DNA of 64,000 nucleotides, taken from contig NMRA01000014.1 in assembly GCA_002633005.1 (NCBI GenBank), forward strand, positions 1,274,838 through 1,338,837, read 5' to 3'. Origin of the DNA: Phoronis australis. Its lineage: Eukaryota; Animalia; Phoronida. The notes beneath the pieces were generated by a model. That model was not told where the DNA came from. It saw nothing but the letters and a program-made list of their open reading frames with translations, and ran no database searches. This document shows, piece by piece, positions 2,895 through 56,800 of the stretch (position 1 is the first letter of the stretch; every line of letters begins with the position of its first letter). A program made the position numbers and the translations under genes.

Positions 2895-3302
2895 ATTGAT
2901 AAATATTTACCGTGAAAAGAAAATCCTATAGCGTACTTTGAATAGTGAATGTAACAAGACTACAAGAAACCTTCAAACCATAGTTTGAGGTGAAAATAAA
3001 TAATAAATATGGCAATTTTGAAGTTAAAATTAAATCACTTTGTATTATTTTTTACTATTTATTCTTGATGCTGTCCAATATTCCGACCAAATATGTTATA
3101 ATGATTAGTTATCCCAACAGCGCTTCTTTCTTTTTGAGATCAACGTGAAAAGGCAGGTAAGCCTACATTTTGTTCTGTTGTCTTCTTACCTCTCATAAGT
3201 TACAGAATTGGGTAACGGACCCAGAATTGTGTTATTATCTATAACGACAGCGAGCCAGTAAGTATAGGTAAAAATAAGTGCAGTGGTCTACTCCCACAGT
3301 TG

Positions 3303-6400: not shown

Positions 6401-6857
6401 TCCTCCAGTAACGAGAATTGAACTTACTTGAACCTGGTATCTCTGCCAATAGGCAAATTCCTTTTGGTAATCAATTTGGAAATGGTTTATTTTACTGTTA
6501 GTCACACCTGGAAGTCTCATGATACATTGTTCACAATTCAAGGCCACTTAAGCCACCTGTGATAATTGCCCCTAACATAGACAAGAACTTAAAGGCGAAG
6601 GCAACCTTTTTCCATGTCATTTTGAGCTAAAATAAGGTTGGTTGGTTATCCTAGACATATTTTTCACTTAATTACAGCTTTTCGTAATTTTATTAACTAT
6701 TCGTCCGCTTTTCCGGAAGTGACGTTTTAGGAGGCAAGCGCTTCCCGCCAATTTCTTTTCACATAGTCTGACTGTGAGAGCTGCCGAGTCAGTCATTGTT
6801 CTACCTCGGTTGTGTTAAGTTCCGTCGTCGTTCGCTTTCATTTACTAGTCAGTCAAC

Positions 6858-7935
6858 ATGCCACACTGTTGCTGCGTACCGGGATGTAGTAATTATCGGC
6901 TCACGCGCGCTTTGGGAGTGCCTTTGCATCGCTTTCCGATGGATGACACACTTCGCCGTACTTGGCTCGTTCGTGTGAAGAACGCAGCGTTACCCGTCCA
7001 CGCAACGTACAAAGCAGTGGAGAATTACCGTGTGTGTGGCAAGCACTTTCTGCCGTCCGATTACGAAAGGGATTTGTACGCTGAACTGATGAAGGTCCCC
7101 GCGAAACAACGCTTGAAGAAGGATGCCATTCCGTCTGTGTTGATTCCCGGCAGTGCCCCGTCGCCACCCCCGAGAAGTGCGTTTTTGAAGCGAGAAGCCT
7201 CGCGAGCTGTGGCCAGTACAGTGACTGGAGCCAGTGGAGGCACTTCATCTACTGTCACCCGTGCCTCCGAACGTACCCCAGAGCGTGCAATTCCTGGAAC
7301 CAGTAGTGATTCGCCCTGTGCTGTTTTCTCCAGCCCAGAGCCTCTAAGCAGCCCTGCAGCGATATTGAGTAGTGGGAGTGATTACAGGCCCAGTTCGACA
7401 CCCAGTGAAGAGGACAGTTCGTCGTCCAGTGAACAGATCGGTGAGCCAAACTTTGATAAGTTTATTGTGGACTTGTCTAAAGTGTTGGAGCTATTTAGAA
7501 GGTGCCAGGTGTGTGGCGAGGGAGTCACACGACACAATGTAAGCAGTTTGGGTGCTCAGGTCACCATCCAGTGGGAGTGTGTCACGGGACACTCTGGCAA
7601 GTGGGACAGTTGTTCCTCTGTCCGTGGTATGCCGGAGGTCCACTTAACCATGTCCAGTGGTGTGCTCTTCACTGGAAACACGTTTCAGTCGGTGAAGACA
7701 ATGATGGACTTTGGAAAAGTCAAGTTTTTTTTCGAAAACAACATTCAACAACATTCAGAATTCCTATTTAATACCAGTTGTCAATGACGCATACATGTCA
7801 CAACATCTCGAGTTGGTGGCGGAATTCATGGAGAAGGAGAACTTGTCTGACTCACCAGGGCGGTCCGCCAAGTATACCACATACACTCTAATGGAGGAAG
7901 AGACCAAAAAGATAATTGATGTGGAACTCGGAACA
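6858..7935 (+). pseudogene. THAP-domain Kolobok-type transposase, frameshifted and truncated
   Basis: THAP finger MPHCCCVPGCSN...LHRFP...W...RVCGKHF...LKKDAIPS; C2CH motif FRRCQVC...WECVTGHSGKWDS. After a frameshift in the T-run near 7725 it continues as SDSPGRSAKYTTYTLMEEETKKIIDVEL; the remainder is deleted. Confidence 0.88.
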
Positions 7936-8199
7936 GCACAAGCATTCAATTGAGGTAGGCATAACAACGCACACAGTGCATTTGCACCAAGATGTGTCAC
8001 CACGTCTGTCTTCAGTAGCCGCCTCGTTTCTCTCAACAGCTGCCTGTGCCTGTGTGTACTCTGCCTCGTTGTACTCGGGCTCAAACATGTACCCACCCAC
8101 TGAATGTCCGTGAAAAAATTCCTCGTCACCACTGCTGTGAACAAGGTCTCCGTCACTCACACTACTGTCACTGTGATACGGGTCACCGACTCCAGCCAT
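7933..8199 (-). pseudogene. Truncated KolX-like accessory ORF with a P2X7 C-terminal (ballast)-like Cys motif, convergent to the transposase
   Basis: MAGVGDPY...GYMFEPEY...DTSWCKCTVCVVMPTSIECLCCSE (WCxCxxC..M....ECLCC); cut at the deletion junction near 7935. Confidence 0.7.
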
Positions 8200-11100
8200 T
8201 TTCAGCTTACAACACACTAAACAATCCCTAAATCCAACGCAGTTGAGTTCTCTACTAACCTATCTTGCCGCAGAATACTCGCCGATGGAAAGTGGTGGCG
8301 ACAATTGGTGAAAAATAGCACAAAACAAAAGTAGAATAGAACAGATTCGCACAGTAAGCTCAACGCAAAACCAAGTGGCGGGAAGCGCTTGCCTCCTAAA
8401 ACGTCACTTCCGGAAAAGCGGACGAGTAATTAATAAAAATACGAAAAGCTGTAATTAAGTGAAAAATATGTCTAGGATAACCAACCAACCTTATTTTAGC
8501 TCAAAATGACATGGAAAAAGGTTGCCTTCGCCTTTAATACCCACCCTGGATACCCATGGCAGAGAGTAGTTCTACTGGAGCATAAAGGAGAGATTGCCAC
8601 TTGCTGTGAATATCCTCAATGATGCTCAAGGAACTCGGCTTTTAGTCTAATTTATATTTAGTCACATTGGAGTTTAGGAAAGTGCATCGCTCACTCAAGT
8701 TTCAGCACTATATGGGTGCCAGATTTTAAGAACAAGTTTAACCAGTTTGATACATATTAACCGCTATTCACAGGAGGAAGGTGCAGCTCCTCAAATTCCT
8801 GGGCCCCGATAAGTGACTTACCCATGGCTAATTTTAGGATTGTCCCCGCACGTCTTTGATGCACTGTGAATACTATAGTCAGGCCAACTAGTGTATTAGA
8901 ATCATGAATCTTTTTTGTATAGCCACTGGTATAATACACGTTACATTCAGATCTTAATACAACAGCAGTGCAGCACAGCTGATTATTATTTTAAGACCAA
9001 GCTACAAATTCAATCTCAGCGATGGGAGGGTCTTGCATACAAGGCATGTAGGAAGGTAGAAATTCTAGGGAGGGGGCTTCAGAAGAACTCAAATCTTGTC
9101 ACACCCTCAGTTGTCTTTGCTTTCGCCAATATCGAATTCCTCTATCACGGCAAATGTAATTAGCCTATTGAGGGCTCTAGCTGTATATTGTGAAAATATA
9201 GATTCCAACTGTGGATTTACGTGTTTCGTTAAAACTAAAAAGTGGTTGACCTTCAGGCCTATCCTTGTCATAGGACATACTCTAGTTGCATACAAAATAA
9301 CACGTGAAAGGTGCTTCTTACAAAAATTTGAATTAGAAAATAATATATGCAGAATTTGCAAGTTTTATGTGCAAAAATCATGTTTGTGGAAAAAAGGAAT
9401 CACCTGTCTTCGAGCATATGGGTAATATTTCCGTGTACGTATTAAGATTCTGTGATCACCAAAGACTTTGAAAATATATAGTTTTGTTTTGTTTTGAATA
9501 ACTTATTTCCCTTAAGTTACGATTAAAGTCATGGCTGTTTGGTGTTAAGTCGAGCCTTGGTATATTCCAGCAGAACCACTTGCTTATGTTTCTGTGGTAT
9601 TTTGCCCCCTCCAGTTTTAGGATTGTTTAATTACTCTGTTGGAAGATTCTTTTACTTTGTAACTTCAAAGAAGCATATCTGTTGTTAGAAGCATACAATA
9701 AATATCTTGGTTCTTTGACATCTCAAGAGTTTGTCATGTCCTCAAATAATATTATTTTTCCATTATGTTGGTTAGCCATTTTCCCCAGTGTCTCTGTAGT
9801 GATACTGACTATCTGAATGTTGTGGCCTAAGTGTGTCACTCTAAACCCATCCATCATTCCTATCCAACGGCAAGAATTCTCTGCAGTTGAAAAGCCTTCC
9901 CTTCTATTATTAATGAGTGTTCACTTAATACTTAATTCTTCATAGCTACATGTAGGCCTCAAGCTCATTTTGACCAAATCTTTGACTGATTCTAAAGTCC
10001 AAATGATTTCAATGACAAAAAGATTTATTGCCATAGTTGAGCTCTGTTTGCGATGCATACTTTTGAGTTAATACACTGCGACTGCCTACTGCAGTGTTGC
10101 CGGAGGTGCTTCTGTAAGGCTTGTGTTTAACAGAAAGGGTCTTATCTATCTAGTAATGTATCACAGCATTCAGGGACATAGCTAGCCGCCCACCCAGTTT
10201 TCAATTTAATTAGGAAGACTTTGGGCAAGCAGAGGTTTACTAGCTGGTGCACAGAGTTGGTAATTAGCCAATGTACAGAGTAGTTAATTAGCCACTGTAT
10301 CGGTGTTCTGTGTTGAATTGAAATTAATCTCCTTACTGTGGTGTTTTTACTTGGCCTCTTTTTGTAAACTTATATTAAGCACCTAGTATTGTTTCAGTGG
10401 TTTTCTAAACTGTTAACACATGGAAGCAAAAGTTTGGGTCGTTCTTGCCGATGTATTTGAATCAGTGACATCCCCTCTTAGTGGGTTCTCGGTGCAGTCG
10501 CTGTGTTGGAAACAACATAGTCATCCTCAGACTTTCATTTTGTGCCGCAAATTAATTTTCAAAAATAATACGTCTTTTGTCACAGTTTTAGAAGCCATGC
10601 TTACTTGGTTCTAAAGTTTCAAACAAACATGGTGGGTTCACGTGTTCTAATGACCTATTTTTTCCGTATGTGGCATATTTGGATTAACTCCTTGCGTCAA
10701 GTGAGCGATGCTGCTATTATGATTTGCTAACAGTGCTTTAACCCAATAATTCCCGCCACCATTCTGTATTCCCTGTGAATACTTATCATGCTTCAAACAT
10801 TTTTTTTGATACTTGTCGCAATGCGAACAGAATTTTTTTAAGTATCCACACAGCACATTTTCTGCGAAGGTGACCGAATAGTGAGGATATCTATTGAATA
10901 TAGGTTGCCTCACTGGAAGGAGGCTGAAGAGCAAGGCCCTCTCTATTAATATAGGGTAGTCCACTGTTGAGGCCCAAAATTGAATTTCTTGCCTATGTCA
11001 TTTTAATAAGGATACGGTAATTCGTTTTAAATAATAAGCTATTTTATGTTTATTTTTTGTCTTGCCTTACGATCTGTTTATAAGAACTGCTACAGAATTG

Positions 11101-22576: not shown

Positions 22577-23390
22577 AAACATAGACGCATGTACCTACAG
22601 GTACTACAAACCTGAACGTACATGTGTGTATCTTCAGATATCCACTGCAAACCAGAACATATGTCAAGTGATGTCCAATCAGTAGCTTGTGTATTGACAT
22701 GGTCCCCCCCCCACATCATCTCATGCCGTTTCATGGTGTCTTATGTTAAAATATAATATGGTGATAGTGAAATGCTACATAATGAAACAAAATTGATCGT
22801 TAGCAAGTGTGGGTTCCCAGCTTTACCTCAGATTTAAATACACACATGAGTAGACTGACCTACATCAGCTCTGCAAATGTTGGCATTTTTGATACTACAA
22901 ACATGTGTTGTAATCCCTTCTATACAGCATGAAAATGACATACCGTATGTACTGTTACTCTGATGGTATGATTATTGCATTAACCTTCATGGATAGAGAC
23001 TTGTTAGGCAGTACATGCTCATGTTCCATAGATGCAAGACACATGAGAATAGCTAGACCTGCATGATCATGCATTTTTGTGAGTTGCGCCTCCAGTCCAG
23101 TTCAGATGTCATCTGCTTGTGGTTAGACAAGTCAATTATCTTTGACAAGGAAATTAACCACTGACAGCAGAAATGCCTTGTTGTAATATTGGAAAAGAAT
23201 TTCTAATAATGCGGTAAGATGTAGAACAGGATTTTTTCCACTGTTTCATTTGTTTAATAAATATTTCCTGTGTCAGAACTAAACAAGTCTGTTGACTTTT
23301 TCAGGAAGTTATTGAAGAATACAAATGTCATATTGGTGTAACAATTAAGCAAACTATCCTCTTTGTCTCCTCCAACTTGCAGAATCTCAG

Positions 23391-23562
23391 ATGCCAATGG
23401 CAGAGATGCACTTGTCTGGTGAGGCCAGTGTGGAAGATTTCGTCAATACAGGGAGGACGGGTCGACGTAATGCCCTGCCTGATGTGTTAGATCCCCAGCA
23501 TGCTGCCGTCGGTACAGGCAACCTGGCTCTTGATTTACAAAAGTTACAGTGTTCCCCTGCAG
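23391..23562 (+). CDS. PKI: cAMP-dependent protein kinase inhibitor (PKI family), first coding exon
   Basis: VEDFVNTGRTGRRNALPDV is the PKI pseudosubstrate (F...GRTGRRNA); LALDLQKLQC resembles the PKI leucine-rich NES. Acceptor ttgcAG at 23382, donor GTAGGG at 23563. Confidence 0.92.
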
Positions 23563-23679
23563 GTAGGGTACAGCAGCTGACATCATGGGGTGGGGTGCAG
23601 GGGCGGATCCAGGATTTTGAGTTAGGGGGGGGGGGGCAGGGCAGAGAATTAGCCAGAATTTTGTCCGTCAGAAATTCGC

Positions 23680-23960
23680 ACCACTGTGGTGGGGTGTTGT
23701 GTTATTCAGAACAGTAGGGATGACACCATGTGGCGTGGTTATGTGTTATCCAGGGCAGTAGGGCTAACACCATGTGGTAGCGTGTTGTGTATTCTGAGCA
23801 GAAGTGCTGACACCATGTGGTGGGGTGACGTGTTACCCAGGACAGCAGGGCTGACACCATGTGGTGGGGGTGATAGATTACCCAGAGCAGTAGAGCTGAC
23901 ACCATAAATTGGGGTGACGTGACGTGTTACCCAGGGCAGTTAGGGCCGACACCATGGGGT
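23680..23960. repeat. Minisatellite, ~44-bp unit (GACACCATGTGGTGGGGTGACGTGTTACCCAGGGCAGTAGGGCT)
   Basis: About 6 degenerate tandem copies in the PKI intron. Confidence 0.8.
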
Positions 23961-30500: not shown

Positions 30501-33500
30501 TCAGTCCTTATGACTGTGACCATGTTTCTTGTGTTTTTTGTGCCTTCTGTCTTTATCCCGTGATCTACTTCTGCTTCTGTAAAATGCAAACCAACATTCG
30601 TGCATTAGTAATTATTATTCATAAGGTGAAAACACAGTACATTTTTGGCAAGAAGTCCATCAAAATCCATTAACTGTCTTCACTGGGCTTCTAGATAATG
30701 GAATTACGTTGGCAACCAATTTGAAGCCAGCCAACAGAGCCATTGACTTGAGCATAAAATAATTCCATGCCTGAAACAAACCTGCAATATCCAAGCACTG
30801 ATGGCATTCATTGCTGATCAAGTACCACTTTAGACTAACTGGGTTACTATTGAATCAAGTTTTGAGAATCTGGATTAGCAGCTCACATACATGTGATCCA
30901 TGCATTTCTTTTCCTAAATTAAATGATTGGTCAAATTGCTGGTACCCAGAGAGTTTGTTTCAAAACTCCCTTCAAATTACAATGGGCTGCACCACAAAAA
31001 GGTTCAGTAAACCAGACTTGTTCATTTTAAATAAGGAATGTGAAATATAAATAATTTGGGCTTTGCCAAAGAAGTTGTTTCAATAGCCATAAGTCAAAGA
31101 CCATTATTTTTTTAAAAGACTACAGCTGGATAAATTCTTTTCAGAAACACCGTGCCCTTAGTAATTGAACTTTTCATTCAAGCACCGAATCTAACAAACA
31201 TTCTTTGATACAGCGGAGAACTTTCCAGTGAAACCAATAAGCTGAACCAGCCTGTACAACCAATTGGCTAATGACATTCACAGAGTGTTTCAGTGATTGT
31301 CACAGGCCTCTGAATGCCTACACACAGGCACTAAATAATACAAAATGGAAACGAGTCCTCCACAGTAATTACAGTGTTTCTTTGAGTTGTAAATGAACTA
31401 TCTGTTCAACTTGAACATTATCCATGCATACGCATTCAGGATTCATCAGCCTATCTTGAAAGAAGATAATTTACGTTCTGTCACCTCGTCCTTATCATTT
31501 GAGAATAATTCATCTGTTGTTTCCTGCTCAGTTTTGAATAAACGCATAGTGTTCAATGAGATTAACAGAGAATAAACTTATATTACAATATTTGAACAAT
31601 TGGTTACACAGAGTCAATCAACTATTGTGATAGATTACGACTCCAATTTACTCAATGTCAGCTTCACTGATGTTACAAAAAATTTCTCAGGTGCTTACTA
31701 ATTTTAGTTTGACATACGTTGGTACGAACTCCCAGGCCAGTTGTCAAACAAAAGCACTTGAAAAAATAATTGCAGGTGTTCTGTGGGCCCATTGCACTGA
31801 TCACCCGGAACCATTTTTATACTTAATCAATATGTAATTAAAACCGAGCTGAGGAGCTTATGACCTGGCTCATTGGTCTAGCAGCATGCCCTAGTGGGAT
31901 TTGAACCCCAAACTTCAAGTAAAGGAAGTAGACACCTTTCACACCTGGCCACACTGTCTCCCTAACACGTACACTTCCAAGCACTACACTTCATAATTTA
32001 CCTGTGTTTCTTTTTCTTTTTGTGTTTCGGACTGCGTTCTCTTGATGACCTTAGGTCACGTTCACTACGAGGGCTGGACCTTGTTGACCCCATAATCCCA
32101 ATCTCCGAGGTCTCCTCACAGGCTGAATCAGCAAGTCTTTGATCTTCCACTTTTTCTTGCTTTATCTTGACGGCCATAGCTGTGTTATCTTTGCATCTTT
32201 TTTCCAAAATCTCCATCTGGTTGTTAATTACTTCTCGCATAATCTAATAGAATATAGAACAATTGTAACTGGAAAGTTCAACGTACATAAAGAATAAAAT
32301 CATGGCTCCTAAGATACCGACTAAACTAACAATATGAGGAACTGTATGTTTCAATCAACATCACACAAAACTTACACCACACCAACCATTCTATTAAACT
32401 GTTCATTCTATCGCGCTGCTCATTCTATCGCGCTGCTCATTCTATAGCGCTGCTCATTCTATCGCGCTGCTCATTCTATCGCGCTGCTCATTCTATCGCG
32501 CTGCTCATTCTATCGCGCTGCTCATTCTATCGCGCTGCTCATTCTATCGCGCTGCTCATTCTATCGCGCTGCTCATTCTATCGCGCTGCTCATTCTATCG
32601 CGCTGTTCATTCTATCGCGCTGTTCATTCTATTGTACTGTTCATTCTATCGCACTGTTCAATCTATCGCACTGTTCATTCTAATACACTGTTCATCAGGG
32701 TAGAGTTCAGTAGCTATCTCGCAGCTAGAAAAATTTAGCCAAAATCACGTTCTCAATACATTTAAAATACACAGCAATATCTCACATTTCGCAAAGTCTT
32801 AGTTTTTAGCGAGGTCCTAGTGTTACTGAACTCTATCCAAGTACATGATCAGAGTGGAGATCGCCTGATGGAAAAGCAGAAAAGCACATAAAGGAGCACA
32901 TAGCAAAAAATGTGAGCCCTGTTTGCTGTGTAACATAAGTGTGCTGTCTCTTCAGCTAATGAGCTTAGTCAATACCCAGTTTAATTAAAATGGTAGTGTC
33001 CTGTGAAATTGGTCTCGGTTATTGTTATGTGATTTGACCATCTTTCAATACAAGATTTAACACCGACCTCAGCTCATGTTGATGCTACTGACTGGTAATT
33101 TATCAGTGTAACTGAAAGCCTTTATAAACCTATGTTCTCACATAGAAACTACAAAAAAACTAAAAGAATTAACTTATGATTTAGACTACTTGCCATTATC
33201 CTTGAGTCTACGCTCCACAAATAAAATGACATGATGTGAAAGGTGGACTTTAAGAGCCTGGTCTCAAGCAATAATGAATTGCCATTTTTTTTCCAAATGC
33301 TAGATATCTCATTTACTTGGACTAAGCAACAATTTGTTACCAATTTCATAACCATAAATGGTCTACATCAAAAGTTGTTTCTTGTGACTGAAGGCGGGGT
33401 CATTGTCATAGCTGGTTCAAGTAAACTGAATATGATGACAACTGATGGGAAACAAAATGTTGTAAGTTCACTACCTCTGTCTGACTTTTCTTTGTTGTGT

Positions 33501-36500
33501 GCACATTTTTGGCTCTATATGACTGTCTTCTACGCTTATAATCGCGTTCTTCCGCCAGCACTTCCAAGTAACTCTTTTGCTGACCTTCCTCTGCAAAATG
33601 TGCACGTGAACAGTACAAATGGAGGAAAAATAAATAGACACATAAAAAATGAGTCAAAAATTCATTATAAAACAGTATGCGCTAGCACACTAACAGCAAC
33701 TGTGTTTACCTTCGTTTTTCTTCTCACTTCCGTTGTTCAGAAACATCAACTCATCCTCTGACATATGTACTAACTTCTTTGAATCTTTGGCCGTCTTGAC
33801 ACAGTAGTCATATAGTGCTAATCTTTCAGTAGCTGTCAAAGTCGTCTGAGCTCGTTCAAAGGTCAGTGGAATCTCTTTGTGTAACAGTGGATGTCCTCCT
33901 GTGGGAAATATTGGCAAAACTGAAATGGTACACTACAGCGCAGAAGTGAACATTAAGTCAACAAAGGTACAGACAAACATCCAGTATGTCACTTATGATC
34001 AACGAGCTGTCATTAGACACTCTCCTGACTAGGTGGGTGGACAGCACAATGAGCACACCCACATAGTTAATGGGATAATGGTAATCAAGTCCTCCCACTA
34101 AGTTATTCCCATTTATAATACATGATCTTCCAGACAGGCCAATCACAAGGCACGTCACATGACATCCATCATAGTACCGTACTCGTTCAGTTTACTATAT
34201 AGGACATTTTGATTGGAGAACTCAATACCGGGGGATGAGAGATAAACAAAACATGGATAGTTAACAAAATTCTTAAAAAGTGCGAGGTGGGTGCTTATAC
34301 TAACAGTCAATCGGGTTAACGGCAAGGGAGCTGCATTGAGGTTGGACTTCACGTGACAACGGAATGTAAGACAGTGGAACCTATGACTAGTACTAGAGTA
34401 GTTTCTGTTGAAACTGACAAATTGTTACTCAAAGGCTAGCTTTTTGGGAGATGTAATTTTGATGAAACGAGCATACAAGCCACCAGCACTTTTAAGGAAG
34501 TCTCGGTAATATAATTTGAGGGTGGCGGGCAAGCTGAACATGGGTGCTCAAAAGTGAGAATTGGGAAATTTCAGGGGTGGACAGTAAGCTAAGCATGACC
34601 GTTGACTGAGCATGTACTATAGACATAATTTTCAATAGCACAGTGCAAGATAAAAACAATAATGAGGTGACACATTGACACTTAGGACAATCTGATCCTG
34701 AATGCCTCCACAGATGGGGCCGAGATCACTTCGTTTCTCAATACATTCCACTGAAGAATAGTGGTAGGTAAACAACTCCTACACACGGGGGCTTTCACCC
34801 AAGTTATTACACAATCTAGATACCAGCCCTGAAGCATCTTATTCGAATTCTTAGGTGTAATGAATTAAAAATAGTCCGATAACAGAAATCACATCATTTT
34901 TAACATAACTTACCTCTTAAATACTATAAGTTTGAATTTGTGAATGTAAGCGCAAGGATGAAATTGTTTGACAAATAAGCAAATTCCGATGTGCAAAATG
35001 GAGCTTCAGTTTTCACTTTTCATCTTAACATTTCTAACTTCTTTATAGCTTTGTTAGCATTTAAAATAAGAACAGACAAAAACAGTTTCTATGCCAGGTA
35101 TTTCAGAAGTTACTTTAATGCACAGTGCAATAAGCAAAGAAGTATTTTCCACTTAAAATATTTACCTTTTTATGTACTATTTTGAATGTATTAACAATTT
35201 GGCTTACACACCAACTTAAGTCACAGCGTTGGTAGAATGCATTACAGCAAATATGTAGATTTTCTCATGTTTACAAATGACACAAGCTCATTAAGTACTA
35301 GATCAGCCAAACCAGAGAAATCTTGTGAAATAAGAAAAGGATTATTCAAGGAGTATCAGAAAACTTAATTATCTTTAGTAAGTTGGGCCATCAGTTCTGC
35401 ATAGTCTGGCATAAAATTTCACCTTTGCATATGTGCAATTCTTGTTTACCAATGAATTGTGTATCGCTTAAATTTTAGAGAACACGCAGACGAAACTTTC
35501 TTTTACGGACTACAGTTCGTGACATACAGTGGCTAAGTCCATATAAGAGAGCATGCATTGCAATTTGTACGTATATCCAAGGAGAGCAGTAATACAGCTG
35601 CTTGAACAACAATTACATAATTATTTAGAACTCCATTAAATGTTCAAAGGATACTATGTCTCAATAGGATACAATCTCTGTTAATACGTACTTGCAATAA
35701 GGCTGAAATTAAAGAAGTTAAGGATTAGTAAACTCAGTAAGCAGTATACGTAAGAAGTCAATCATAGATATGTCGCTAAAACTTCAGCCATGACAGATAT
35801 TGAATGCATAGTAAGTACAGGAACAAAGTGCGGAACTAACGACACAATTATATCTTGGTAAATTAGCAAGTGTGAGAGAAGAGCCATCCGTACACCCACC
35901 TTGACTGTTGTTGCTGGCAGCTTGCCTCAGTATATCATTCTGTAGTTGAACATCTGAAACAGTGCACAATAGTTCAACGGGTGACTTATATCAAATAGTT
36001 GGTTCCGGTACGGAGAACATACACAGAACAAACAGCAGTGTTTGCTACACCTATCTATTTCCATTAATACCACTCTAAAAACTAAAACGTGAAATGAATC
36101 ATCAACAGTTGCACATAATAATTTCATGCTGTGAACAGATTTACTCCATGGCAACAGCATTGAGAACAGACAAGTGCAACAATAGATTTACTCTCAGTAA
36201 CTGCACTGACAATACCCATGTTCAACAATAGACTTAAGGACCTCCACTGCCTAATGATCGAACCTTAAAGGAATGTTTCGCACGTTTAGTAAAAATACTG
36301 TCTCCCCAATTACATTTCAAACTATGCAAAATACCCAGCCAGCATTATTACATGTCAAAACACCCCCAATGATTCTTGGGTGTACTTGCAAACAGCTCAC
36401 AGGGCCACCAGCCAACTGCATAACCGTCATTAATTTGCAACATTTTGGGTCATAAAATGAAATTATCGGGTACAAAAATGATTTTCTAAGAACGCCTTGA

Positions 36501-37866
36501 GTGCAGAATCGAACATACAAGTTGCGTGGTTTGAACCTAACAATCTGCTTGCAAAGCTAAAACCCATTCGATTAATGACAGCATATCTTAAAGGTATTTA
36601 ACTGCTTAAGTCACCAGTCTTGACTTAAGCAAATGCCTGGCAAACAATGCCTAGAGCTGGCAATTTGTGATAAAATCACAAAAACAAAGCAGCGGATTTT
36701 ATTTTGTAGCTTTGGTCAAAGCCAAGGACTTCAAAATGTTTATCATAACCAATAACAATCCCAAAAATAGCATTTTCTCAGACGTAAAATCGATAATGTC
36801 TTTTTAAGAGGTGTCTTACTCATCCTGATTGAGTGTACTGTTGGGGTATTATCATAGTAGAAGCCACAGCTTGACACTCCTTCCTGTAAAAACAAGGTGC
36901 ATTATGGTCAGACATTTATCAATAGAACAGTAAAGCAGTGTTCAAATATGGGTGCATATCAATGTGTGCACAATACTAATATGATGGGCAAAAAGCTCAC
37001 GTGCATTCCACAGGTGCATAAATTGTCGATTCTTGAACAAATAACCAATGTACCACAACCCATAGTATCACTCCACTCGGTTTGCCTTGTTACACCACGT
37101 TTTTGTACTTTAATTATGATCAGGCTCCTAGACACATAACCAGGCCACCATAGACGTGCACACTACAGTAGCACTCACTTCACTTGATTTACCTAGCTTC
37201 CTCATCATGATCTGATCACACACCTAGACACATAACCAGATGTACATACCGTAATATCTTGTCTGCTGTATCCTGCCCTCTGCATCCCACATCTGCATTC
37301 ATGATCCTCTAGTTTACAGGCACTCACTTTGTGGCTAGAGTCATGTCTGCACTGCACAAGGTCACTTGAGTCCTAGTGAAAGAAGAGACCAACTGAAGCA
37401 CCGTAACTCCTTGCAGATTTCCAAAGGTTATTCACCACCCATTTTCAGTTGATTCGGTACATCAGCCAACTTCCACAATGTACATCAACTGATTAATATT
37501 TATAGAAAAAACATAACGATTTGCTAAAATTTTCCTGTGATATTTTTTTGGGGTAACAGCATTTGAGATCTTATGATCAATAATATCTCCCATCTTCAAT
37601 AGAAACGTAAATGGTTCCCTTGGAAACGTGTTAAAACCAGAGGTAGCAGAGACAATGACCAAGGTGTTGGGGTAACTATGACCTGGCCCCTACACCCCGT
37701 GAAATAATTAACACATAAAGCCTCTAAGATGACGATCTTTACACATTGACCAACCAACCTGTTGACGGCGAAGTCCTGCCTCAGTCCAACCAACAGCTTC
37801 CAATATTCTATTGAGTTCAGACTCCGATGATTCTATGAAGGCATTCAAGTCAGTCAGTGGATTCAT
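30501..37866 (-). CDS. SNRNP48: U11/U12 snRNP 48 kDa protein; exons 37866-37759, 37372-37250, 36883-36820, 35953-35900, 33919-33710, 33590-33475, 32243-32002, 30576-30501 (~330 aa)
   Basis: CHHC zinc finger VQCRHDSSHKVSACKLEDHECRC; diagnostic KSYLEVLAEERDYKRRRQSYRAKNVHTTKKSQTE-IMREVI; basic RS/K-rich tail. All introns are GT-AG with consistent phases; AATAAA on the - strand at 29953-29948. Confidence 0.93.
31860..31962 (-). mobile_element. tRNA-derived SINE head (degenerate)
   Basis: On the - strand, an A-box-like GTGGCCAGGTG is followed by a B-box GGTTCAAATCCC; no complete cloverleaf is evident. Confidence 0.5.
32398..32695. repeat. Minisatellite, 17-bp unit (GCTCATTCTATCGCGCT)
   Basis: About 17 copies, a homogeneous core with polar decay at the right end. 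Confidence 0.95.
32698..32838. mobile_element. Small MITE-like element with terminal inverted repeats
   Basis: gggtagagttcagta ... tactgaactctatcc. Confidence 0.5.
35646..35672 (-). promoter_or_regulatory. USSE-like element: tandem U12-type 5' splice-site motifs in SNRNP48 intron 4
   Basis: The - strand reads GTATCCTAttgagacataGTATCCTTT, i.e. two RTATCCT motifs with starts 18 nt apart. Confidence 0.85.
35692..35702 (-). other. Candidate 11-nt poison micro-exon of SNRNP48
   Basis: ttctttaatttcAG|CCTTATTGCAA|GTACGT; inclusion shifts the frame to a TGA at 33865-33863. Confidence 0.7.
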
Positions 37867-38224
37867 GGTTCAAAAATCTGGAATAAACAATTTCTCTTTG
37901 CAGACAGCACTATCTTACTTCGACACTCAATGGCCAGGTTTACCCCAGTGCTGAGCCTCAACTTGCGTGAAATGTATTAACATTTGTGACATGTGCAATG
38001 GTGTATGCACAAAAGACATGGCTCGTTAACAATTTCACTAGTAAGTGAATGGACCAGCACCTATAGGAAAGCAATTCCAACTGTCGCAGTATCCGTTTTG
38101 GTTTGAAGGGTATTTGGTCTCACAAGACATCAACTGTTTTAACCAGCCTGAGTAGTAACTGGTTGTAGAAAAATTCTAAAGTAACCAATGGCTAATGTGG
38201 GAAGTGCCGTCATGGCTGGGGGAC

Positions 38225-39200
38225 ATCTAGACACTGATCACTGTCTACAGCTGGCTCAGTAAAGACGGTATAACTTCTATAGGAGCTTCATACACCAGAA
38301 GCTTTTCGGCGAATTATGCCTTACACCCACTAAAACATCAAAGTCACGTTGTTATAAATGTACCTTTTGCGCATAGAGGGACACCTCAGGAGGCCGTCAA
38401 CGTATTAAATTCCTTCCAACTCAGACTACCCGTTATCAAACTTTTTCTTCGAGCAGTCCCTTGTTCAGTTCCCAAAATCGGTAACTTGCAATTTTTAACA
38501 CTTCAACCAGCAGGTGGCATGACATACGTATCCCCTAGCGTGCGCAGCGTGAAAATGGCCAATTACAGAACTGAATGAGGGACTGCTCAAAGAAAAAGTT
38601 TGATAACAGGAGCATTTGTTCGAGTTGGAAGAAATTAAATACATCGACGACCTCCTAAGGCATCCCTCTATGGCTCTATGCCCAAAAGGTATTTATAACA
38701 ACGTGACTTTGATTTTTTTATCAGTGTGAGCCATAATTCGCTAAAAAGCTTCCGGCGTATGAAGCTCCTATAGGGGCTACATCATCTCTACTGAGCCAGC
38801 TAGAGACAGTGGTCACTGTCTGGCCTGGGTGACATCTATTGACAGCTGGCAATGCACGGTCTACATTAGGGGGAAATGACGTCATATCCCTTGGCATGAC
38901 CAGTGTAAAATGGCCAGTTGCCAGAACAGGGGACTGTTTGAAGAAAGTTTGATTGCGGGAGTATTTTTTCGAGTTGGAAGGAATTGAAGACATCGAGGGC
39001 CTCCTAAGCTAAGTCTTAAGCCCGGTCTTAGCCTGGTGTCCCTCTGAGTCTAAGAGCGAAAGGTACTTATAACAACGTAAATTTGATGTTTTAATCAGTG
39101 TGAGGCATAATTTGCTGAAAAACTTCCACCGTAAGAAGCACCAATAGGAGCTTCACCGTCTCTAGTCCAGCTAGAGTCGTAGAGACGATGCTCACTGTCT
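38225..39200. mobile_element. Foldback element (inverted arms ~38230-38510 and ~38545-38822) plus a third tandem arm (~38900-39200)
   Basis: aagcttttcggcgaattatg and aaaacatcaaagtcacgttgttataaat recur as reverse complements at 38690-38750 and 39065-39120; same family as 1545-2440. Confidence 0.75.
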
Positions 39201-45277: not shown

Positions 45278-48200
45278 TCAGCTCTGATATGACTTTGGTA
45301 CCACCAGCAGTGAATCAGCATCTGGAACACAAATCAAAGAGACATGAACACAAGACAGGTTTCTTCATCGGGAGTTACACAAGGACTTCCAGTGCTTTAA
45401 TTTTGCAACGAGTCCCTAGCCGCCCCACGACAAATGAGATGAAAGTTCAACTATCATAAAAACACAGAAATCAACACGTGTTACAACTTGTTGTCAGGAT
45501 ATATAAAAATATTTATTGATAATAAATTACATGCGCCATGTGAGAGAGCAGTTGTTTTAACCTGCCATGTAAACTAAACATATACACAGAATGAATATTC
45601 TTATTATCCTCATCCATGTACACAGTATTACCATTCATGTCTACTTACATCCCTGGTGCAATAATTTATCCAGTATCAGGCCATAAAATGACTTCCGGTT
45701 AGAAGTTGTATCTGTTGGTGTAAAATACCTATAAATAAAATGAAAACTCAAAAAATTAAAACACTTTACACGTAATTACCAATACAACAACAATGCAATG
45801 ATTAAACACTACAATAAGCACCCAGGCACCTACATCTTGGCAAAAAAACAATTTAAATCTAAAGCTTCGTTCATGAGATATGCCATCAACAATATTGTGT
45901 AACATATGCTTATGAATAAAATGGAACTCCGTACTCTCTTTGATACTCCACCTTCTATTACTTGATGTCTGACCGGTGAACGCAGTATCCCAAATCACAT
46001 TAATTCTTTGAGATAAACAAGTTATGGAACCTCTTCACTGTCCCTCTTTTGTGTTTTTGCAGAATCTCTGATTTGGTTAATGGTTACCTTTCGTTTGATG
46101 CACACAAAATGATAGCAAAAACCACAAACAGATCATGACAAGACGGCCCATGCTTCTGTGATGCCCAATTCACAGTAGGAATGAGGCGAGAAATCGTCAG
46201 TTGATGTGCCTACTATTCTTTCAAATCCTAACCATTAATCAACAACATTTCCTGCATCATTCTGCTTTTCAACTCCCGACATCGCTGCTTATTTTCAAAA
46301 CCATAAGACAAATTCCCCGTGCAAATTCCTAATGTTCTATTTGCTTTTAACTCCTTCAAATGTCATCCATTCATTCATAGTTTTACTGCATGAAATGTGA
46401 CACTAATGCATTTTTATTGATTTGGAAACCATTGACTGTCAAATCACCAGCTTTCACCAGCAATATATGGCCCGTGTTTACTGCTGCAAAAACTTGCCTT
46501 GCTTTGGTTCCTAATGCAACCATGTATGACAAACGAAATGAAAAAGGTCGTGTTAATCATTACTGAACTGCAAACAAAGAGAATACAGAGTGCCTTGCGA
46601 AAAAACGTAAAAAGAAGACTGGCAAATGAAGCAAATTTATTCTCCAATTACATTTGTAATCAAAGAAAGATAAAAGGAGATACATTGAAGAAAACTGAAA
46701 AATATGAAATTTAAGAAGGCCAACAGATATTTAGACCCTAAGTTAGAAAACTGATAATTTGGGTAGGTGGCGAAATGACAACCTGGCAATTTTCTAAGCC
46801 TTAAATCCTGATGGCAGGTGATGTTTTAAGAGCTTCAAACCTACCAGCCAATATGAGTGCCACACTTTGGACAGAGACTGATCTGCCAGGCAAACTCAGG
46901 AAACCAGGAGTGTTCTGGATGAGACTGAAAGTGAACAGTATGCTTAATGAAAACAGGTGGGCAATGTTGGTGCAACTCAGGTGCTTTCCCATTAGGGGAA
47001 ATTCGATTCAGCGAAGCTTTGCCAAAATTTTGCTTATCTTTTTGATTAGACAGCAATATCGAAGGTGTCGTTAAGATGTGAGACGACGCAGTTCGTACTC
47101 TCACACGAATATTAAGTAGTGGGCTCCAGGCTAACTGAAAATTATTCTCCTGACATTTACTAAATGTTTAGGGAAATGATCGGGGTCATTCTTCATAAGA
47201 TATGCTTTCTTTTATTTACGTGCATCTGTTGAGAGCATGTCGGTTACAGTACATTGACGCACACGTTTTGTGATTCTCACGTGACCGTTAATCATTACCT
47301 CGACAGCTACCAATAATTTCGACGAAGCTTTGCTTTGACTGTTCCCACCGAAGTTTCGGTGAGTATCATCACTTTTAAATCCTGCTATTTTCAGCAAAGT
47401 TTCACTTGGAGATTAACTACCGGAGTTAACTCTTCCCACTTACTGTAACTTCGGTAAATGCAAAGTTTTGCCTCCAATGGAAAAGCGATTTTAAACAACA
47501 CTTAAACAATGCATTCATAAAACAACATAGATCTACCAAAAATTTTAATCTACTATTACCCCGGTTTCCACTGTCAAGACGTTCTAAAACACTAATTGGT
47601 AAAGCTCACAGTATTAGCAAACATTGCATTCATCCTTCGAAATCTGGTGATTGCATGAACAAGACAGCAATTTTGCAAATATTAAAAGGATACCACACCT
47701 GGTTTTGGCCCATGAACAGCTATTAAAAACAACTTTCCCATCCAGTTCTCTCAAACAAAATAATCCTCTGTAACCCTTGACAACTCTCAAAATTTTGGAG
47801 TTGGCTAAACAGGCAAGAGTGACCTATGCTTTAGGTGAATTACACCACAACTGTAAGGATAGATCACCCACCAAGAACCATCAGATGATATCTAATCTGT
47901 GACACGGTGAGTTCATAGTTAACTCTTGCTTTTGTCCCTCAATTGGGATGCCAATTACTCATTATCAGGTGAGAGAACGAGGATTGGTTGAAATCATCAA
48001 AACAGGGTTTAGAATCCTTTTAAGTGAATGGTTTACCATATTATGTTCAGTCCTGTTGGTTTGGCATGATAGTGCTCAAAACGTTGACACTCAATCTCAT
48101 AGTGAGTTTAGCTCGGTGTAAAATCGTGACATTAAAATGATAAAATTGGCATTAGTGACAGGTAACATATTGCAAAAGCTAAATCTAATCAAATTATTTC

Positions 48201-52906: not shown

Positions 52907-53820
52907 CTTGGTTATACATCTCTCCTAAAAAGCGACAAACAACGGTGTTTTTTGTTAAATACAAGGCTGACAAATCATTACCTCTGTTACGAAAAAATAC
53001 GAAAATGGTATAATTCGAGGAGTTCTCTTTTTTATGTTTCATACTGACGTGTCAAAACTACTACGTTGTTTTTGTAAACATGCCGATAAATGGTGTGTGC
53101 CAATTAATCAGCTATTGTAACAAACTCCCTCTGTAATGCTTTTCGAGCACAATCTTAATGAATAAAGAAAATTAATTTTTCGGCATTTAAAGAGCGTCAT
53201 ATCCTCGTGAAACTGTTTTACACGTAACACTGACTTGAAGAAAAAAGAGATAACAGTTTTCCCGATGAGAGTGGTACGTGCCTGGACAAGATTTCCAGGG
53301 GGAAGCTAAAATGAGGTTTCAATGGAAGTAAACAGCCGCCATTTTTCCCGATTGCGAACTTACTTCAGCATAGTTTTCCATTCTTTTATAAGTCAAAAAG
53401 ATACAGATTTACACTAATAGTAAAACTGTATGATAGGAAAAGTCCTAAAGCTCATTGATCACGGCTCATATGGTCCCTAAATTGTCAAATGTAGCTGATC
53501 TGCATAAAAATAAGCAACAAATGCCGGCTGTTTACATTTGGGTTGATTGACAACTGACGAAACCCGGTCACACATTATCCAATCACAAGGAGGACATCAC
53601 AGAGTTGATCCAATGAACTGCGAATACTTAGTCATATGACGTAAATAACCACACCTCCTTCAATGTACCAAAACAAACCTGTTGGCAGAGAAGCCGGTTG
53701 TCAAAAACAGCTGATCGTATTTCATCATTTTCTTTTACTTTTATGCGTTTTGGTCGGGTAATTCCCGAATGAACCGTCAGTTTTGTGTTGTACAAAGGGA
53801 ATGTTGGAAAATATTTGAAA
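52907..53820. promoter_or_regulatory. Bidirectional promoter / 5'UTR region between the CULT gene and the ZNF395/704-like gene
   Basis: Divergent ATGs ~914 bp apart; CCAAT boxes (~53579, ~53611), TGACGTAA (~53637), YY1-like CGCCATTTT (~53337). Confidence 0.6.
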
Positions 53821-56800
53821 ATGTTCGGCAGCAGAAGGCTCGCTAAACGTTCTATAATTGGAACCCGAATTTGTGCGCCTTGGCAAGATGGCCGGTTTTA
53901 TCCAGGGGTGGTTCAGGCCATGAAAGAGATGGCTAGTGGTCATCATTGGTACTCTGTACAATTCGATGATGGCTACACTGGTGAGTTTACGGAGGCCGAC
54001 ATCGTAGGACCTGGCTTCCAGGGCATTCAGAGTAAATACCTGAAACACGGCCAAAGAGTATTCCTAACTCAGAACGGCAGGGAAGTCGCCGGTGTTGTAT
54101 TGCATCACGACAGACCTTCAGGCGATGTCACGGTGGACGCCAAAGTGAGCGACCATGACCACCAAGAGGTCATGAGGAAAGTGGATGAACTGAGATTGGT
54201 GGAGAGCCGAAAATCAGCTCGGTTGCAAGACACCGATACGGACTACTCAAAGTTGGCTGATGTCCAAATTCAGTTGGATGTGTCCAAAAAAAGGCCAGTT
54301 TCCCATGTCATTGATGTTCCATCCAAAAGCAGGTTTGTTAATGATATTTCCCTCCCTTTACTAGTTATTAATTTTCCAAATTACGATCAATTTCTCTATA
54401 ATTTAAATCTGATTTGCACTGTAATTTTCAGTTGAATGTATGTGTCATGTCTTTTCCCATTATCCATCAATGATGAATTAATGAAGTAAAAAGAGTTGAG
54501 TCAAGGAATTTCCATATATAACGATCAGTGTAAAAATATGTAAACAGTGAACAATTGGTAGGAAGAATCCTGTTATACATTTTTGAAAATTGTGTAATGT
54601 TACAATTGTCGTTTATTACATGTATTTATGGAAATTTGATTCTGGTGAAAATTATATCATGTGTTCTATTGATTCAAAAAGTTCTACTCAGCATTTGTAT
54701 TTTGTGGAAAATATTGTGACAGAGAGAAATCCTTTATTCTCATGTGAAGTAATTTGGAGTTATGATTGCATAACTTGAGCAAAAAAATTTTTACTTTTTA
54801 TCAGTTTCATATTGTCCATACACGTTTGTGATACTTCAGTTATGCAAGACGATCTCAAAGTGAGGAGAGCGAAGACATTGAAATGATGGACGAACACATG
54901 GCGGCCATGGTCTTGACTACACTGTCTTGTAGTCCTGTGTCACCAAAGTTTCCTGTCAGCTACGTAGAAAAACGTGAGTAGTCCCAACACAGGTACAAAA
55001 AGTTTCATTTTGGCCACATTGAAGTCACGTGATTTGCTGATTTTTAGTTACAAGGGAATCTGAAGTGCAATTTCTGAACTTGATTCCTCTCATCCAACCA
55101 CATGATGAAAACTCAAGTACATCTCTGAGCTAAACTGAACCGTAGATGGTAATGGCTACCATGAGCTGGATGAACTTTGACCTCAGCAGCTGGTGTGATT
55201 GACAGTTCATGCCATAAATGAATGACTGAATGACTGAGGTTGTAAAAAATGATTTGTGATTTCAACTGAAACTGGCATTATATTCAGGTCTGAATAATGA
55301 ATTCCTGGGATTTCTATTTTTTTCGTTGTACACAACTATGTCTAATTTGCAGTGAATACAACAGCAGAATCATGAAACGGAAGCAAAAAGTGGTAATTTC
55401 AAATTGCACATATTTATGCAATTAAAATTGTGGATGAGAGGCTTGGATATGCATTAACATGACTGGTGTGCCTTCTTATTGTTAAAGTAGATTTTTAATA
55501 TCTGCATAGAGAGCCTGTTCACTGAATCTATGTTATCAAGTTAAAAATAGCAGAAATTGTAGGCTAGCTACATGTGATTTGATATTTGGAGCGTGCATTA
55601 AACTATGTTTAAACATTAAAACCTTGAAATGTCAAGTTGAATTACGATCATGGAACAGTGGACTACGGTACACTGTATTGGGATTATATTTTATCAGGAG
55701 CACAATTTCTTTAGTTACTCAAGTTCATGTATGGTGCTCTGGCTGTCATGCTTAGTTTCTATGCGCTTGCCATAAAATATTTACTAAAAATTATGTAAAG
55801 TTAGTCCGAACTGTAACTAGTGTAAATAGATGTTAAAAACAATGTTATGTAGTTGTCAAATGTTTCCAATCTTACATCACTCGTTTCATAATAGGATTTT
55901 CCACATATCATAAATTACAACATTGTATTGATGGTGCATTTTACATACCCTCTTCTGTGGGTTAATCCCATTACTTGGCCTACAGGCCATCTCTGAAGTT
56001 TCCGAATTTTCACTTTTAAATATCTTACTCGACTTTCCTCCCACCCGCAGTTCATACAACCATTTTCGTAGACTCTCTTGTTAATGCCTAGCTGTGTATG
56101 TGAATCTCATCTCATCAGAATGTTACCTCCCCAAAAGTACACAACTGACCTTTGAGTAGCAATTAGACATTGTTAGAAGTGTAACTTACCTTCTTTCGGG
56201 CACAAAAGTACCCATCCCCTCCTGCTCTTTACTGAAGAAGACATGAAATCGTTCTTTTCTCTTGTGTCATGCCAATGAATGCTTTTATGAGCGAAATCTG
56301 AAATGTGGGGTTAATTTATCGCTCTGTAATTATGTTATACAATCAATCCACCTTGAAAGAACAAAATCGCTCAAAATGAGGCATTTGTTTCATGAAAAGT
56401 GACAAATATAACGTTTTCATCAAAGCGGTTAACTTTTAAATTCAATTTAACTGACAGTTCTCAGTCCAAAACACTTTAAAATAGGTTTTAAAAGTGGTAA
56501 CTGTAGCGCTGTCATAACCCTCTGTTTGAATGGTTCAGTGAGAGGTTATAAATGCTGTAACTCTTAATTGTGAACACGGCAGTCGCTAAAGTTATAACTC
56601 AGTAGGTGGCGCTGCTGTCAAACCTCGTCAGAAACATTATGGTGCATCGAGGCTCTAACTGGGATGAATCAGAAACCAACAGTACTGACATCTAGATAGT
56701 GTGACTAAAACTATGAACTAAGATTACTACACTTTTGTGAAATAGTAATTACATAACATTTACAATATAGAAAGAGTTACAACCAGGTTTAGTTGGTCTA

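What the first reader, a model, noticed from the sequence alone, without database searches (positions are those of the whole stretch)
35646..35730. Minor-spliceosome autoregulatory cassette (USSE plus poison micro-exon) in SNRNP48 intron 4
Seen (- strand): tactaatccttaacttctttaatttcAG|CCTTATTGCAA|GTACGTattaacagagattGTATCCTAttgagacataGTATCCTTT. This is an 11-nt exon followed 19 nt later by two U12-type 5' splice-site motifs. Including the exon after exon 4 (phase 1) shifts the frame to a TGA at 33865-33863, about 150 nt upstream of the next junction, which predicts an NMD substrate. Established: vertebrate SNRNP48 intron 4 carries a tandem U11-binding USSE that activates an upstream 3' splice site and a short NMD-inducing exon (8 nt in human). 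Inference: the same U11-sensing feedback loop operates in this invertebrate, in the equivalent intron, with a different exon length. The ORF track does not show it.
Basis: partly seen in the sequence, partly recalled or inferred. Interest (0 to 1): 0.85.

Follow-up and report, generated by a model that had tools for sequence, protein, structure and literature searches.

The report
Invertebrate SNRNP48 U11 poison-exon switch
An intron of an animal's gene for a minor-spliceosome protein holds an 11-base, stop-causing exon that RNA reads show being spliced in, followed by two decoy splice-site motifs that likely switch it on, so this is a real but expected copy of a feedback switch already published for this gene.

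Summary
Real, and a new member of a known system. The gene is an expressed 8-exon SNRNP48 (U11-48K) orthologue. RNA reads show the 11-nt exon (35702-35692) spliced between exons 4 and 5: 5 of 10 junction reads carry its exact letters. Inclusion shifts the frame to TGA 33865-33863, 153 nt before the next junction. One correction: the exon-5 acceptor is 33898, not 33919. Two U12-type donor motifs (8/9 and 9/9) start 30 and 48 nt after the acceptor. The same layout lies in the same intron in 3 of 8 distinct homologous loci. U11 binding, causation and NMD are inferred from the published USSE system, known in animals and plants. The scan noted it before in a worm, a sea urchin and a ray. Against: inclusion is as common as skipping, odd for an efficient NMD target; 5 of 8 homologues lack the element; no close relative was available. 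Interest 0.32.

The parts
37759..37866 (-). SNRNP48 exon 1 (coding part, from ATG)
   Evidence: RNA joint 37371..37758; translation
37250..37372 (-). Exon 2, CHHC zinc finger
   Evidence: Best PDB hit U11-48K zinc finger 2vy4_A, E 0.0064; Pfam zf-U11-48K E 0.025, below its cut-off; joints
36820..36883 (-). Exon 3
   Evidence: RNA joints
35900..35953 (-). Exon 4 (54 nt, ends in phase 1)
   Evidence: RNA joints; phase
35724..35730 (-). U2-type branch-like heptamer TACTAAT (branch A predicted at 35725)
   Evidence: sequence; consensus recalled; use as a branch not tested
35716..35724 (-). 9/9 match to the U12-type branch-site consensus (TCCTTAACT), ending 13 nt before the micro-exon; role unknown
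   Evidence: unique in 128 kb of both strands; the gene's other 7 acceptors score 4-6 of 9; consensus from PMC2846911
35703..35715 (-). Pyrimidine tract and AG of the regulated 3' splice site
   Evidence: sequence; used in RNA
35692..35702 (-). 11-nt poison micro-exon
   Evidence: exact letters between exon 4 and exon 5 in 3 X1 reads and 2 X2 reads
35684..35691 (-). U2-type donor of the micro-exon (GTACGTAT)
   Evidence: 9 of 11 match to the U1 consensus, highest of the gene's 8 donors; used in RNA
35664..35672 (-). USSE motif 1 (GTATCCTAT, 8/9 to RTATCCTTT), 30 nt after the acceptor
35646..35654 (-). USSE motif 2 (GTATCCTTT, 9/9), 48 nt after the acceptor
33899..35691 (-). Downstream part of intron 4; low, near-continuous same-strand RNA coverage, suggestive of an extended-exon (retained) isoform
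   Evidence: summed depth 2.9 versus 0.5 upstream of the acceptor and 13.7 in exon 5
33710..33898 (-). Exon 5 (189 nt; acceptor at 33898)
   Evidence: RNA joints; only PDB hit human U11-48K 141-180, E 0.015
33863..33865 (-). Premature TGA reached when the micro-exon is included
   Evidence: translation: 131-aa product, stop 153 nt before the next junction
33475..33590 (-). Exon 6, most conserved part
   Evidence: human U11-48K 205-239, E 6e-13
32002..32243 (-). Exon 7
   Evidence: RNA joints
30501..30576 (-). Exon 8 (coding part to stop)
   Evidence: RNA joint 30576..32002; 323-aa product

Best explanation
[quoted passage not shown] Shown: the gene is expressed, the exon is spliced between exons 4 and 5 through an AG and a U2-type GT, inclusion gives a stop 153 nt before the next junction, and the layout recurs in the same intron of distant animals. 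Inferred from the vertebrate system: 48K-containing U11 (or U11/U12) snRNP binds the two motifs without using them as donors and recruits major-spliceosome factors to the acceptor 30 nt upstream. If U1 then uses the GT at 35691, the message is predicted to go to nonsense-mediated decay. If not, the rest of intron 4 would stay as an extended exon, which is nuclear-retained in mammalian cells. More functional U11 snRNP would thus mean less productive 48K mRNA.
For: Identity: exon 6 matches human U11-48K at E 6e-13; exons 5 and 2 also hit U11-48K best. Seven RNA joints give an 8-exon, 323-aa gene. Micro-exon letters in 5 of 10 exon 4/5 junction reads from two runs. Premature stop with three junctions downstream. 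Tandem motif chance about 0.0005 per 2-kb intron. In 27 homologous loci (296 kb, both strands) there are exactly three tandem pairs, all in the phase-1 intron after exon 4 and all behind an AG/short exon/GT: L009 (fish-like, 8 nt, frameshift), L008 (12 nt with in-frame TAA), L013 (11 nt with TAA); those exons are predicted, with no RNA. Intron position aligns with the fish locus and with the block missing from a pika isoform. No TCCTTRAY lies downstream of the motifs in intron 4, so they lack a partner for a real minor intron. Same-strand coverage in intron 4 is higher behind the acceptor than before it; an extended, nuclear-retained 48K isoform is described in PMC5473595. Mechanism as published: PMC5473595 introduction, PMC8329584.
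Against: Inclusion is as frequent as skipping at steady state (X1 3-4 versus 2 reads; X2 2 from one start versus 2; the X4 contig skips), which is high for an efficiently degraded message; counts are tiny and mates may be double-counted. The micro-exon has the gene's best U1 match and one of its best pyrimidine tracts, so it might be included unaided. Motif 1 has A at +8 and fails the RTATCCTT rule quoted in PMC2846911. 5 of 8 distinct homologous loci with the whole interval, a bird among them, have no exact pair. No close relative was available, so no conserved island was shown; the four cassettes share layout, not linker sequence. X1 has no depth at 35625-35855 and X3 no listed exon 4/5 joint. 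Intron 3 also has some coverage (1.6 versus 2.95). No G-runs lie between the exon and the motifs (their role in mammals is recalled). The RNA comes from other individuals under the same species label, with about 2-3% exon differences. U11 snRNA of this organism was not seen (no genome held).
Confidence: 0.8

Rival explanations
1. U11 drives the acceptor as above, but NMD is weak here. The off-switch would be mainly nuclear retention of the extended isoform, or the micro-exon message would yield a 131-aa product that keeps the zinc finger and lacks the rest.
For: 5 to 6 of 10 junction reads include the exon without any NMD block known to me. Coverage across the downstream part of intron 4 is about a fifth of exon 5. 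The truncated product keeps exon 2.
Against: Read numbers are very small; library type is unspecified and may include nuclear RNA. The stop meets the usual junction rule by a wide margin. Homologous exons all predict early stops by different means, as expected if only decay matters.
Confidence: 0.1
2. The micro-exon is a poison exon defined by its own strong U2 signals and other regulators; the tandem motifs are a retained relic with little effect.
For: Best U1 match of the gene's 8 donors (9 of 11) and 15 of 20 pyrimidines; motif 1 is imperfect; 5 of 8 homologous loci lack the pair.
Against: An unselected pair would decay, yet motif 2 is 9/9 and motif 1 8/9. In all four cassettes the pair follows the acceptor within 30-79 nt. 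An 11-nt exon is usually too short for ordinary exon definition (general knowledge).
Confidence: 0.07
3. The GTATCCT motifs are true minor-spliceosome donors of a nested U12-type intron.
For: Motif 2 is a perfect U12 donor consensus.
Against: No U12 branch consensus downstream in intron 4, and 4 of 9 at the exon-5 acceptor. No joint from 35672 or 35654 was listed, though the listing needs 3 reads.
Confidence: 0.02
4. Chance motifs plus splicing noise.
For: Single motifs occur at chance frequency in the window.
Against: Pair probability about 0.0005 per intron; half of the junction reads include the exon; three homologous loci repeat the layout.
Confidence: 0.01

Closest known systems
USSE of SNRNP48 / U11-48K (Verbeeren et al. 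2010; Turunen et al. 2013; Niemela et al. 2015; none read, seen through PMC5473595, PMC8329584, PMC3584512)
   Same: Same gene; tandem U12-type donor motifs in an intron; upstream U2-type acceptor; short poison exon with a premature stop; signs of an extended-exon isoform.
   Different: Exon is 11 nt (8-nt candidate in the fish-like locus L009). The motifs are closer to the acceptor (30 nt, against 42, 46 and 79 in L008, L013, L009). No G-runs between exon and motifs. A 9/9 U12 branch consensus sits at the regulated acceptor and is absent from the three homologous cassettes. No functional test exists here.
USSE of RNPC3 / U11/U12-65K (PMC5473595)
   Same: Tandem U11 sites activating an upstream U2-type acceptor; nuclear retention of the USSE-bearing isoform.
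   Different: Different gene; acts in the 3'UTR, changes UTR length and cleavage/polyadenylation, no coding poison exon.
U1-70K / U1C cross-regulation and other splicing-factor poison exons (cited in PMC5473595)
   Same: A snRNP component's message is diverted to an unproductive isoform according to snRNP status.
   Different: Uses U1 and major-spliceosome sites, not tandem U11 sites.

Membership tests
USSE of SNRNP48 (U11-48K) | Lies in the gene for U11-48K | tested here: met
   Exon 6 versus human U11-48K E 6e-13; exons 2 and 5 best hits U11-48K; alignment with named vertebrate orthologues
USSE of SNRNP48 (U11-48K) | [quoted passage not shown] | tested here: met
   8/9 and 9/9 to RTATCCTTT, 18 nt apart, in intron 4; motif 1 departs at +8
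USSE of SNRNP48 (U11-48K) | An upstream U2-type 3' splice site at a short distance is used | tested here: met
   Acceptor 35703, 30 nt before motif 1, used in 5 reads with exact letters. The published range of about 25-50 nt is recalled, not read.
USSE of SNRNP48 (U11-48K) | Inclusion of a short cassette exon creates a premature stop | tested here: met
   TGA 33865-33863, 153 nt before the next junction
USSE of SNRNP48 (U11-48K) | Same intron as in other animals | tested here: met
   Phase-1 intron after exon 4 in the window, L008, L009, L013; border aligns with vertebrate proteins. The number 'intron 4' for human is recalled.
USSE of SNRNP48 (U11-48K) | The motifs are not used as splice donors | tested here: inconclusive
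   No joint from either motif listed, but depth is low and listing needs 3 reads; no U12 branch site downstream
USSE of SNRNP48 (U11-48K) | Sequence between acceptor and USSE conserved among related species | tested here: inconclusive
   No close relative available; distant cassettes share layout only
USSE of SNRNP48 (U11-48K) | Extended-exon isoform retained in the nucleus | tested here: inconclusive
   Same-strand coverage 2.9 behind versus 0.5 before the acceptor; X3 depth stops at 35702; no joint listed, no fractionation
USSE of SNRNP48 (U11-48K) | U11 snRNP binds the motifs and is required for acceptor use | not testable with these tools
   Needs mutation, U11 block and compensatory rescue
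USSE of SNRNP48 (U11-48K) | Micro-exon isoform is degraded by NMD | not testable with these tools
   Needs NMD inhibition; steady-state inclusion of about half is a mild point against
U12-type intron | U12 donor paired with a downstream U12 branch site near an acceptor | tested here: not met
   No TCCTTRAY in 35640-33899; exon-5 acceptor scores 4 of 9

The most novel reading that the evidence does not exclude
In this lineage the cassette is read by both halves of the U11/U12 particle: U11 on the tandem motifs behind the micro-exon and U12 on a perfect U12 branch-site sequence in front of it, overlapping the U2 branch site. The exon would be bracketed by minor-spliceosome signals in reverse order, and U2-versus-U12 competition at the acceptor would set the choice between micro-exon, retention and skipping. 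That would make it a sensor of the intact di-snRNP rather than of U11 alone.
Probability: 0.12. Interest if true: 0.65.

Novelty: new member of a known kind. Interest (0 to 1): 0.32.

Why it matters
It adds an RNA-supported invertebrate example to a published feedback loop of the minor spliceosome. With L008, L009 and L013 it suggests that the layout and the early stop are kept while exon length (8, 11, 11, 12 nt) and linker sequence are free. A specialist would expect the element and would not be surprised. The one unexpected feature is the perfect U12 branch consensus at the regulated acceptor. If it is functional, it gives a natural substrate for asking whether U12 takes part in USSE action and why the element is read by the di-snRNP.

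Tried and rejected
No whole genome is held, so U11/U12 snRNAs and RNPC3 of this organism could not be examined. Niemela 2015 (PMC4829294) and Turunen 2013 (PMC3677248) are not held; Verbeeren 2010 was not requested; a search for U11-48K + intron 4 + NMD gave 0 papers. Exon 5 found no homologue in the word-indexed search. A search with L013's protein gave no named close relative (at most 42% identity), so the lineage of L008/L013 is unresolved. Rfam finds nothing in the window. The cassette has no stable fold (z +1.31), so an RNA-structure explanation was dropped. Acceptor 33919 was rejected on RNA joints. I looked for a true U12 intron elsewhere in the window: the lone GTATCCTTTT at 47693 (-) lies inside what reads as a GT-AG intron (by eye), and the branch-like site before 19449 (+) is followed by no open frame. 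No listed run was indexed as an RNA holder; the evidence comes from laying raw reads of runs with the same species label.

Full report
Observation. Against the consensus RTATCCTTT (PMC2846911, passages) they score 8/9 and 9/9. Single RTATCCT motifs are at chance level in the window (14 seen, 11.9 expected). A pair within 40 nt appeared in 10 of 300 simulated 128-kb sequences at each of two Markov orders, about 0.0005 per 2-kb intron, and this is the only pair in the window.

The gene. RNA joints define eight exons on the - strand: 37866-37759 (from the ATG), 37372-37250, 36883-36820, 35953-35900, 33898-33710, 33590-33475, 32243-32002 and 30576 onward, all GT-AG. They encode 323 aa. Exon 6 matches human U11-48K residues 205-239 at E 6e-13, its only PDB hit. 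Exon 5 matches residues 141-180 (E 0.015, only hit). Exon 2 hits the U11-48K zinc finger best (E 0.0064), though Pfam zf-U11-48K stays below its cut-off. Identity to the nearest full-length homologues is 33-39%. That the organism is an invertebrate is inferred from this distance to vertebrate orthologues and from unchecked notes on the same genome.

RNA evidence. Three raw-read runs and one contig set with the same species label were laid; about 18-19% of each raw run was read. Exons differ from the window by roughly 2-3%, so these are other individuals. At the exon 4/exon 5 border there are 10 raw junction reads. In X1, 4 reads sit in the row without placement ambiguity, 3 of them with exactly the 11 micro-exon letters (the fourth has no listed letters), and 2 skip. 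In X2, 2 reads from one start carry the 11 letters and 2 skip. X3 has none listed, and the X4 contig skips. The exon is therefore real. Inclusion gives a 131-aa product ending at TGA 33865-33863, 153 nt before the next of three downstream junctions. Use of the acceptor without the micro-exon donor gives a stop after 135 aa. Intron 4 carries same-strand coverage behind the acceptor (summed depth 2.9, against 0.5 before it and 13.7 in exon 5). Introns 1 and 2 have 0, intron 3 has 1.6, and introns 6 and 7 have 0.2-0.7 in the bins used, which left out repeat-dominated bins. X3 depth ends at 35702 to the base, which fits one read of an extended exon, but this is bin arithmetic, not a listed joint. 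X1 has no depth at 35625-35855. Inclusion as common as skipping is the main result against efficient NMD; counts are small and mates may be counted twice.

Homologous loci. A scan of metagenome contigs with an exon-6 alignment returned 27 loci. Fifteen were dropped before counting: L002, L004, L006, L016, L023 (exon 5 not held or not mapped), L003, L007, L011, L015 (only the 3' end of the intron), L012, L014 (no intron here), L024-L027 (exons 4/5 not mapped). Twelve hold the whole interval; five of these (L017, L018, L020-L022) are over 99.5% identical, leaving 8 distinct loci. Three of 8 have an exact tandem pair, and these are the only pairs in 296 kb of both strands of all 27 loci. Each lies in the phase-1 intron after exon 4, behind an AG, a short exon and a GT. 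L009 (best hits are fishes) has 8 nt and a frameshift; L008 has 12 nt with an in-frame TAA; L013 has 11 nt with TAA at the same place. L008 and L013 also allow a 4-nt exon; their exons are predictions without RNA, and their lineage is unresolved. Acceptor-to-motif distances are 30 (window), 42, 46 and 79 nt. The linkers do not align. The window's intron aligns with that of L009 and with the block missing from a pika isoform. Five of 8 lack an exact pair: L001 (bird-like; only a degenerate 8/9 pair near the 3' end), L005, L010, L019 and the L017 group. The element is thus old but patchy.

Mechanism. Shown: expression, splicing of the micro-exon, the premature stop, and recurrence of the layout. 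Inferred from the published system: U11 snRNP binds the tandem motifs without splicing there, activates the upstream U2-type acceptor by exon-definition contacts, and yields a poison-exon message for NMD or an extended, nuclear-retained isoform (PMC5473595: introduction read, and passages including the S8 Fig legend; PMC8329584 passage). Since 48K is part of U11 snRNP, this is negative feedback. The motifs have no U12 branch partner downstream, so they do not open a minor intron. Confidence 0.8. Rivals: weak NMD with retention or a truncated product as the main outcome (0.10); a self-sufficient poison exon with relic motifs (0.07); real U12 donors (0.02); chance (0.01).

An unnamed feature. 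It ends 13 nt before the micro-exon and shares one base with a U2-like TACTAAT. It is the only such 9-mer in 128 kb; the gene's other 7 acceptors score 4-6 of 9. A looser form occurs at 2 of 510 other pyrimidine-rich YAG sites. PMC3584512 gives an optimal U12 branch-to-acceptor distance of 11-13 nt (passage); I did not see how it is measured, and the branch A here is 16-17 nt upstream. PMC8848931 reports that a reporter with TTCCTTAAC binds U2 poorly (passage). Against a role: the match was noticed after the fact, it also fits the U2 branch pattern (recalled), and the three homologous cassettes score only 5-6 of 9. I give 0.12 to the reading that U12 reads this site.

Comparison and novelty. 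USSEs are described in SNRNP48 and RNPC3 only (PMC6865273 passage), conserved in plants and animals, best in vertebrates, and absent in Diptera (PMC3584512 passage). Eight paper searches showed no paper devoted to an invertebrate SNRNP48 cassette. The three primary papers with species surveys were not read (not held; the 2010 paper not requested), so I cannot say that this lineage is unreported. Other papers seen as passages only: PMC12179342, PMC8034651; term look-ups in PMC7244321 and PMC6865273 gave nothing. No supplement was opened. This scan noted the same element earlier in a worm, a sea urchin and a ray, and its absence from octopus SNRNP48 (unchecked AI notes). Five defining features were tested and met, three are inconclusive, two are untestable here, and none failed. 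Verdict: works like, and very likely is, the SNRNP48 USSE; new member of a known kind; interest 0.32.

Noticed in passing
window 35724-35716 (-): Perfect U12 branch-site 9-mer at the poison exon's acceptor, overlapping a U2-like branch heptamer; unique in the window, not in the three homologous cassettes.
   Followed up: partly
L008 1836-1905 and L013 892-961: Two loci of an unnamed non-vertebrate lineage carry a SNRNP48 USSE with a 12-nt or 11-nt candidate exon that holds its own in-frame TAA (or a 4-nt exon through an earlier GT); a way to be a poison exon without a frameshift.
   Followed up: partly
L001 689-3324: Bird-like SNRNP48 intron 4, complete, has no exact tandem U12 donor; only a degenerate 8/9 pair at 3130 and 3164.
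   Followed up: partly
L012 and L014: SNRNP48 copies that are largely or wholly intronless (retrocopies, transcripts or intron loss), so without the regulatory intron.
   Followed up: no
window 33920-33921 (-): A second in-frame AG 21 nt upstream of the exon-5 acceptor; no listed joint uses it.
   Followed up: yes
window 32440-32680: Tandem array of an 18-nt unit, roughly 13 copies by eye, in SNRNP48 intron 6, next to an abundantly transcribed dispersed repeat at about 32790-32835.
   Followed up: no
window about 49432-46840 (-): Exons that read like a cereblon/yippee-type (CULT) zinc-binding protein upstream of SNRNP48; label recalled, Pfam gave no hit on the one piece tried.
   Followed up: no
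window 6849-7787 (+) and 7888-8259 (-): THAP-domain ORF (E 4e-15) facing a P2RX7_C-like ORF (E 6e-5), possibly parts of a DNA transposon.
   Followed up: no
window 23349-23717 (+) and 53773-54435 (+): Exon of a cAMP-dependent protein kinase inhibitor (PKI, E 4e-13) and a DUF4772/Tudor-like exon (E 7e-27).
   Followed up: no
window about 38200-39200: Several copies of a roughly 300-nt dispersed repeat in both orientations just upstream of SNRNP48, with similar copies near 2000-2450; seen by eye.
   Followed up: no
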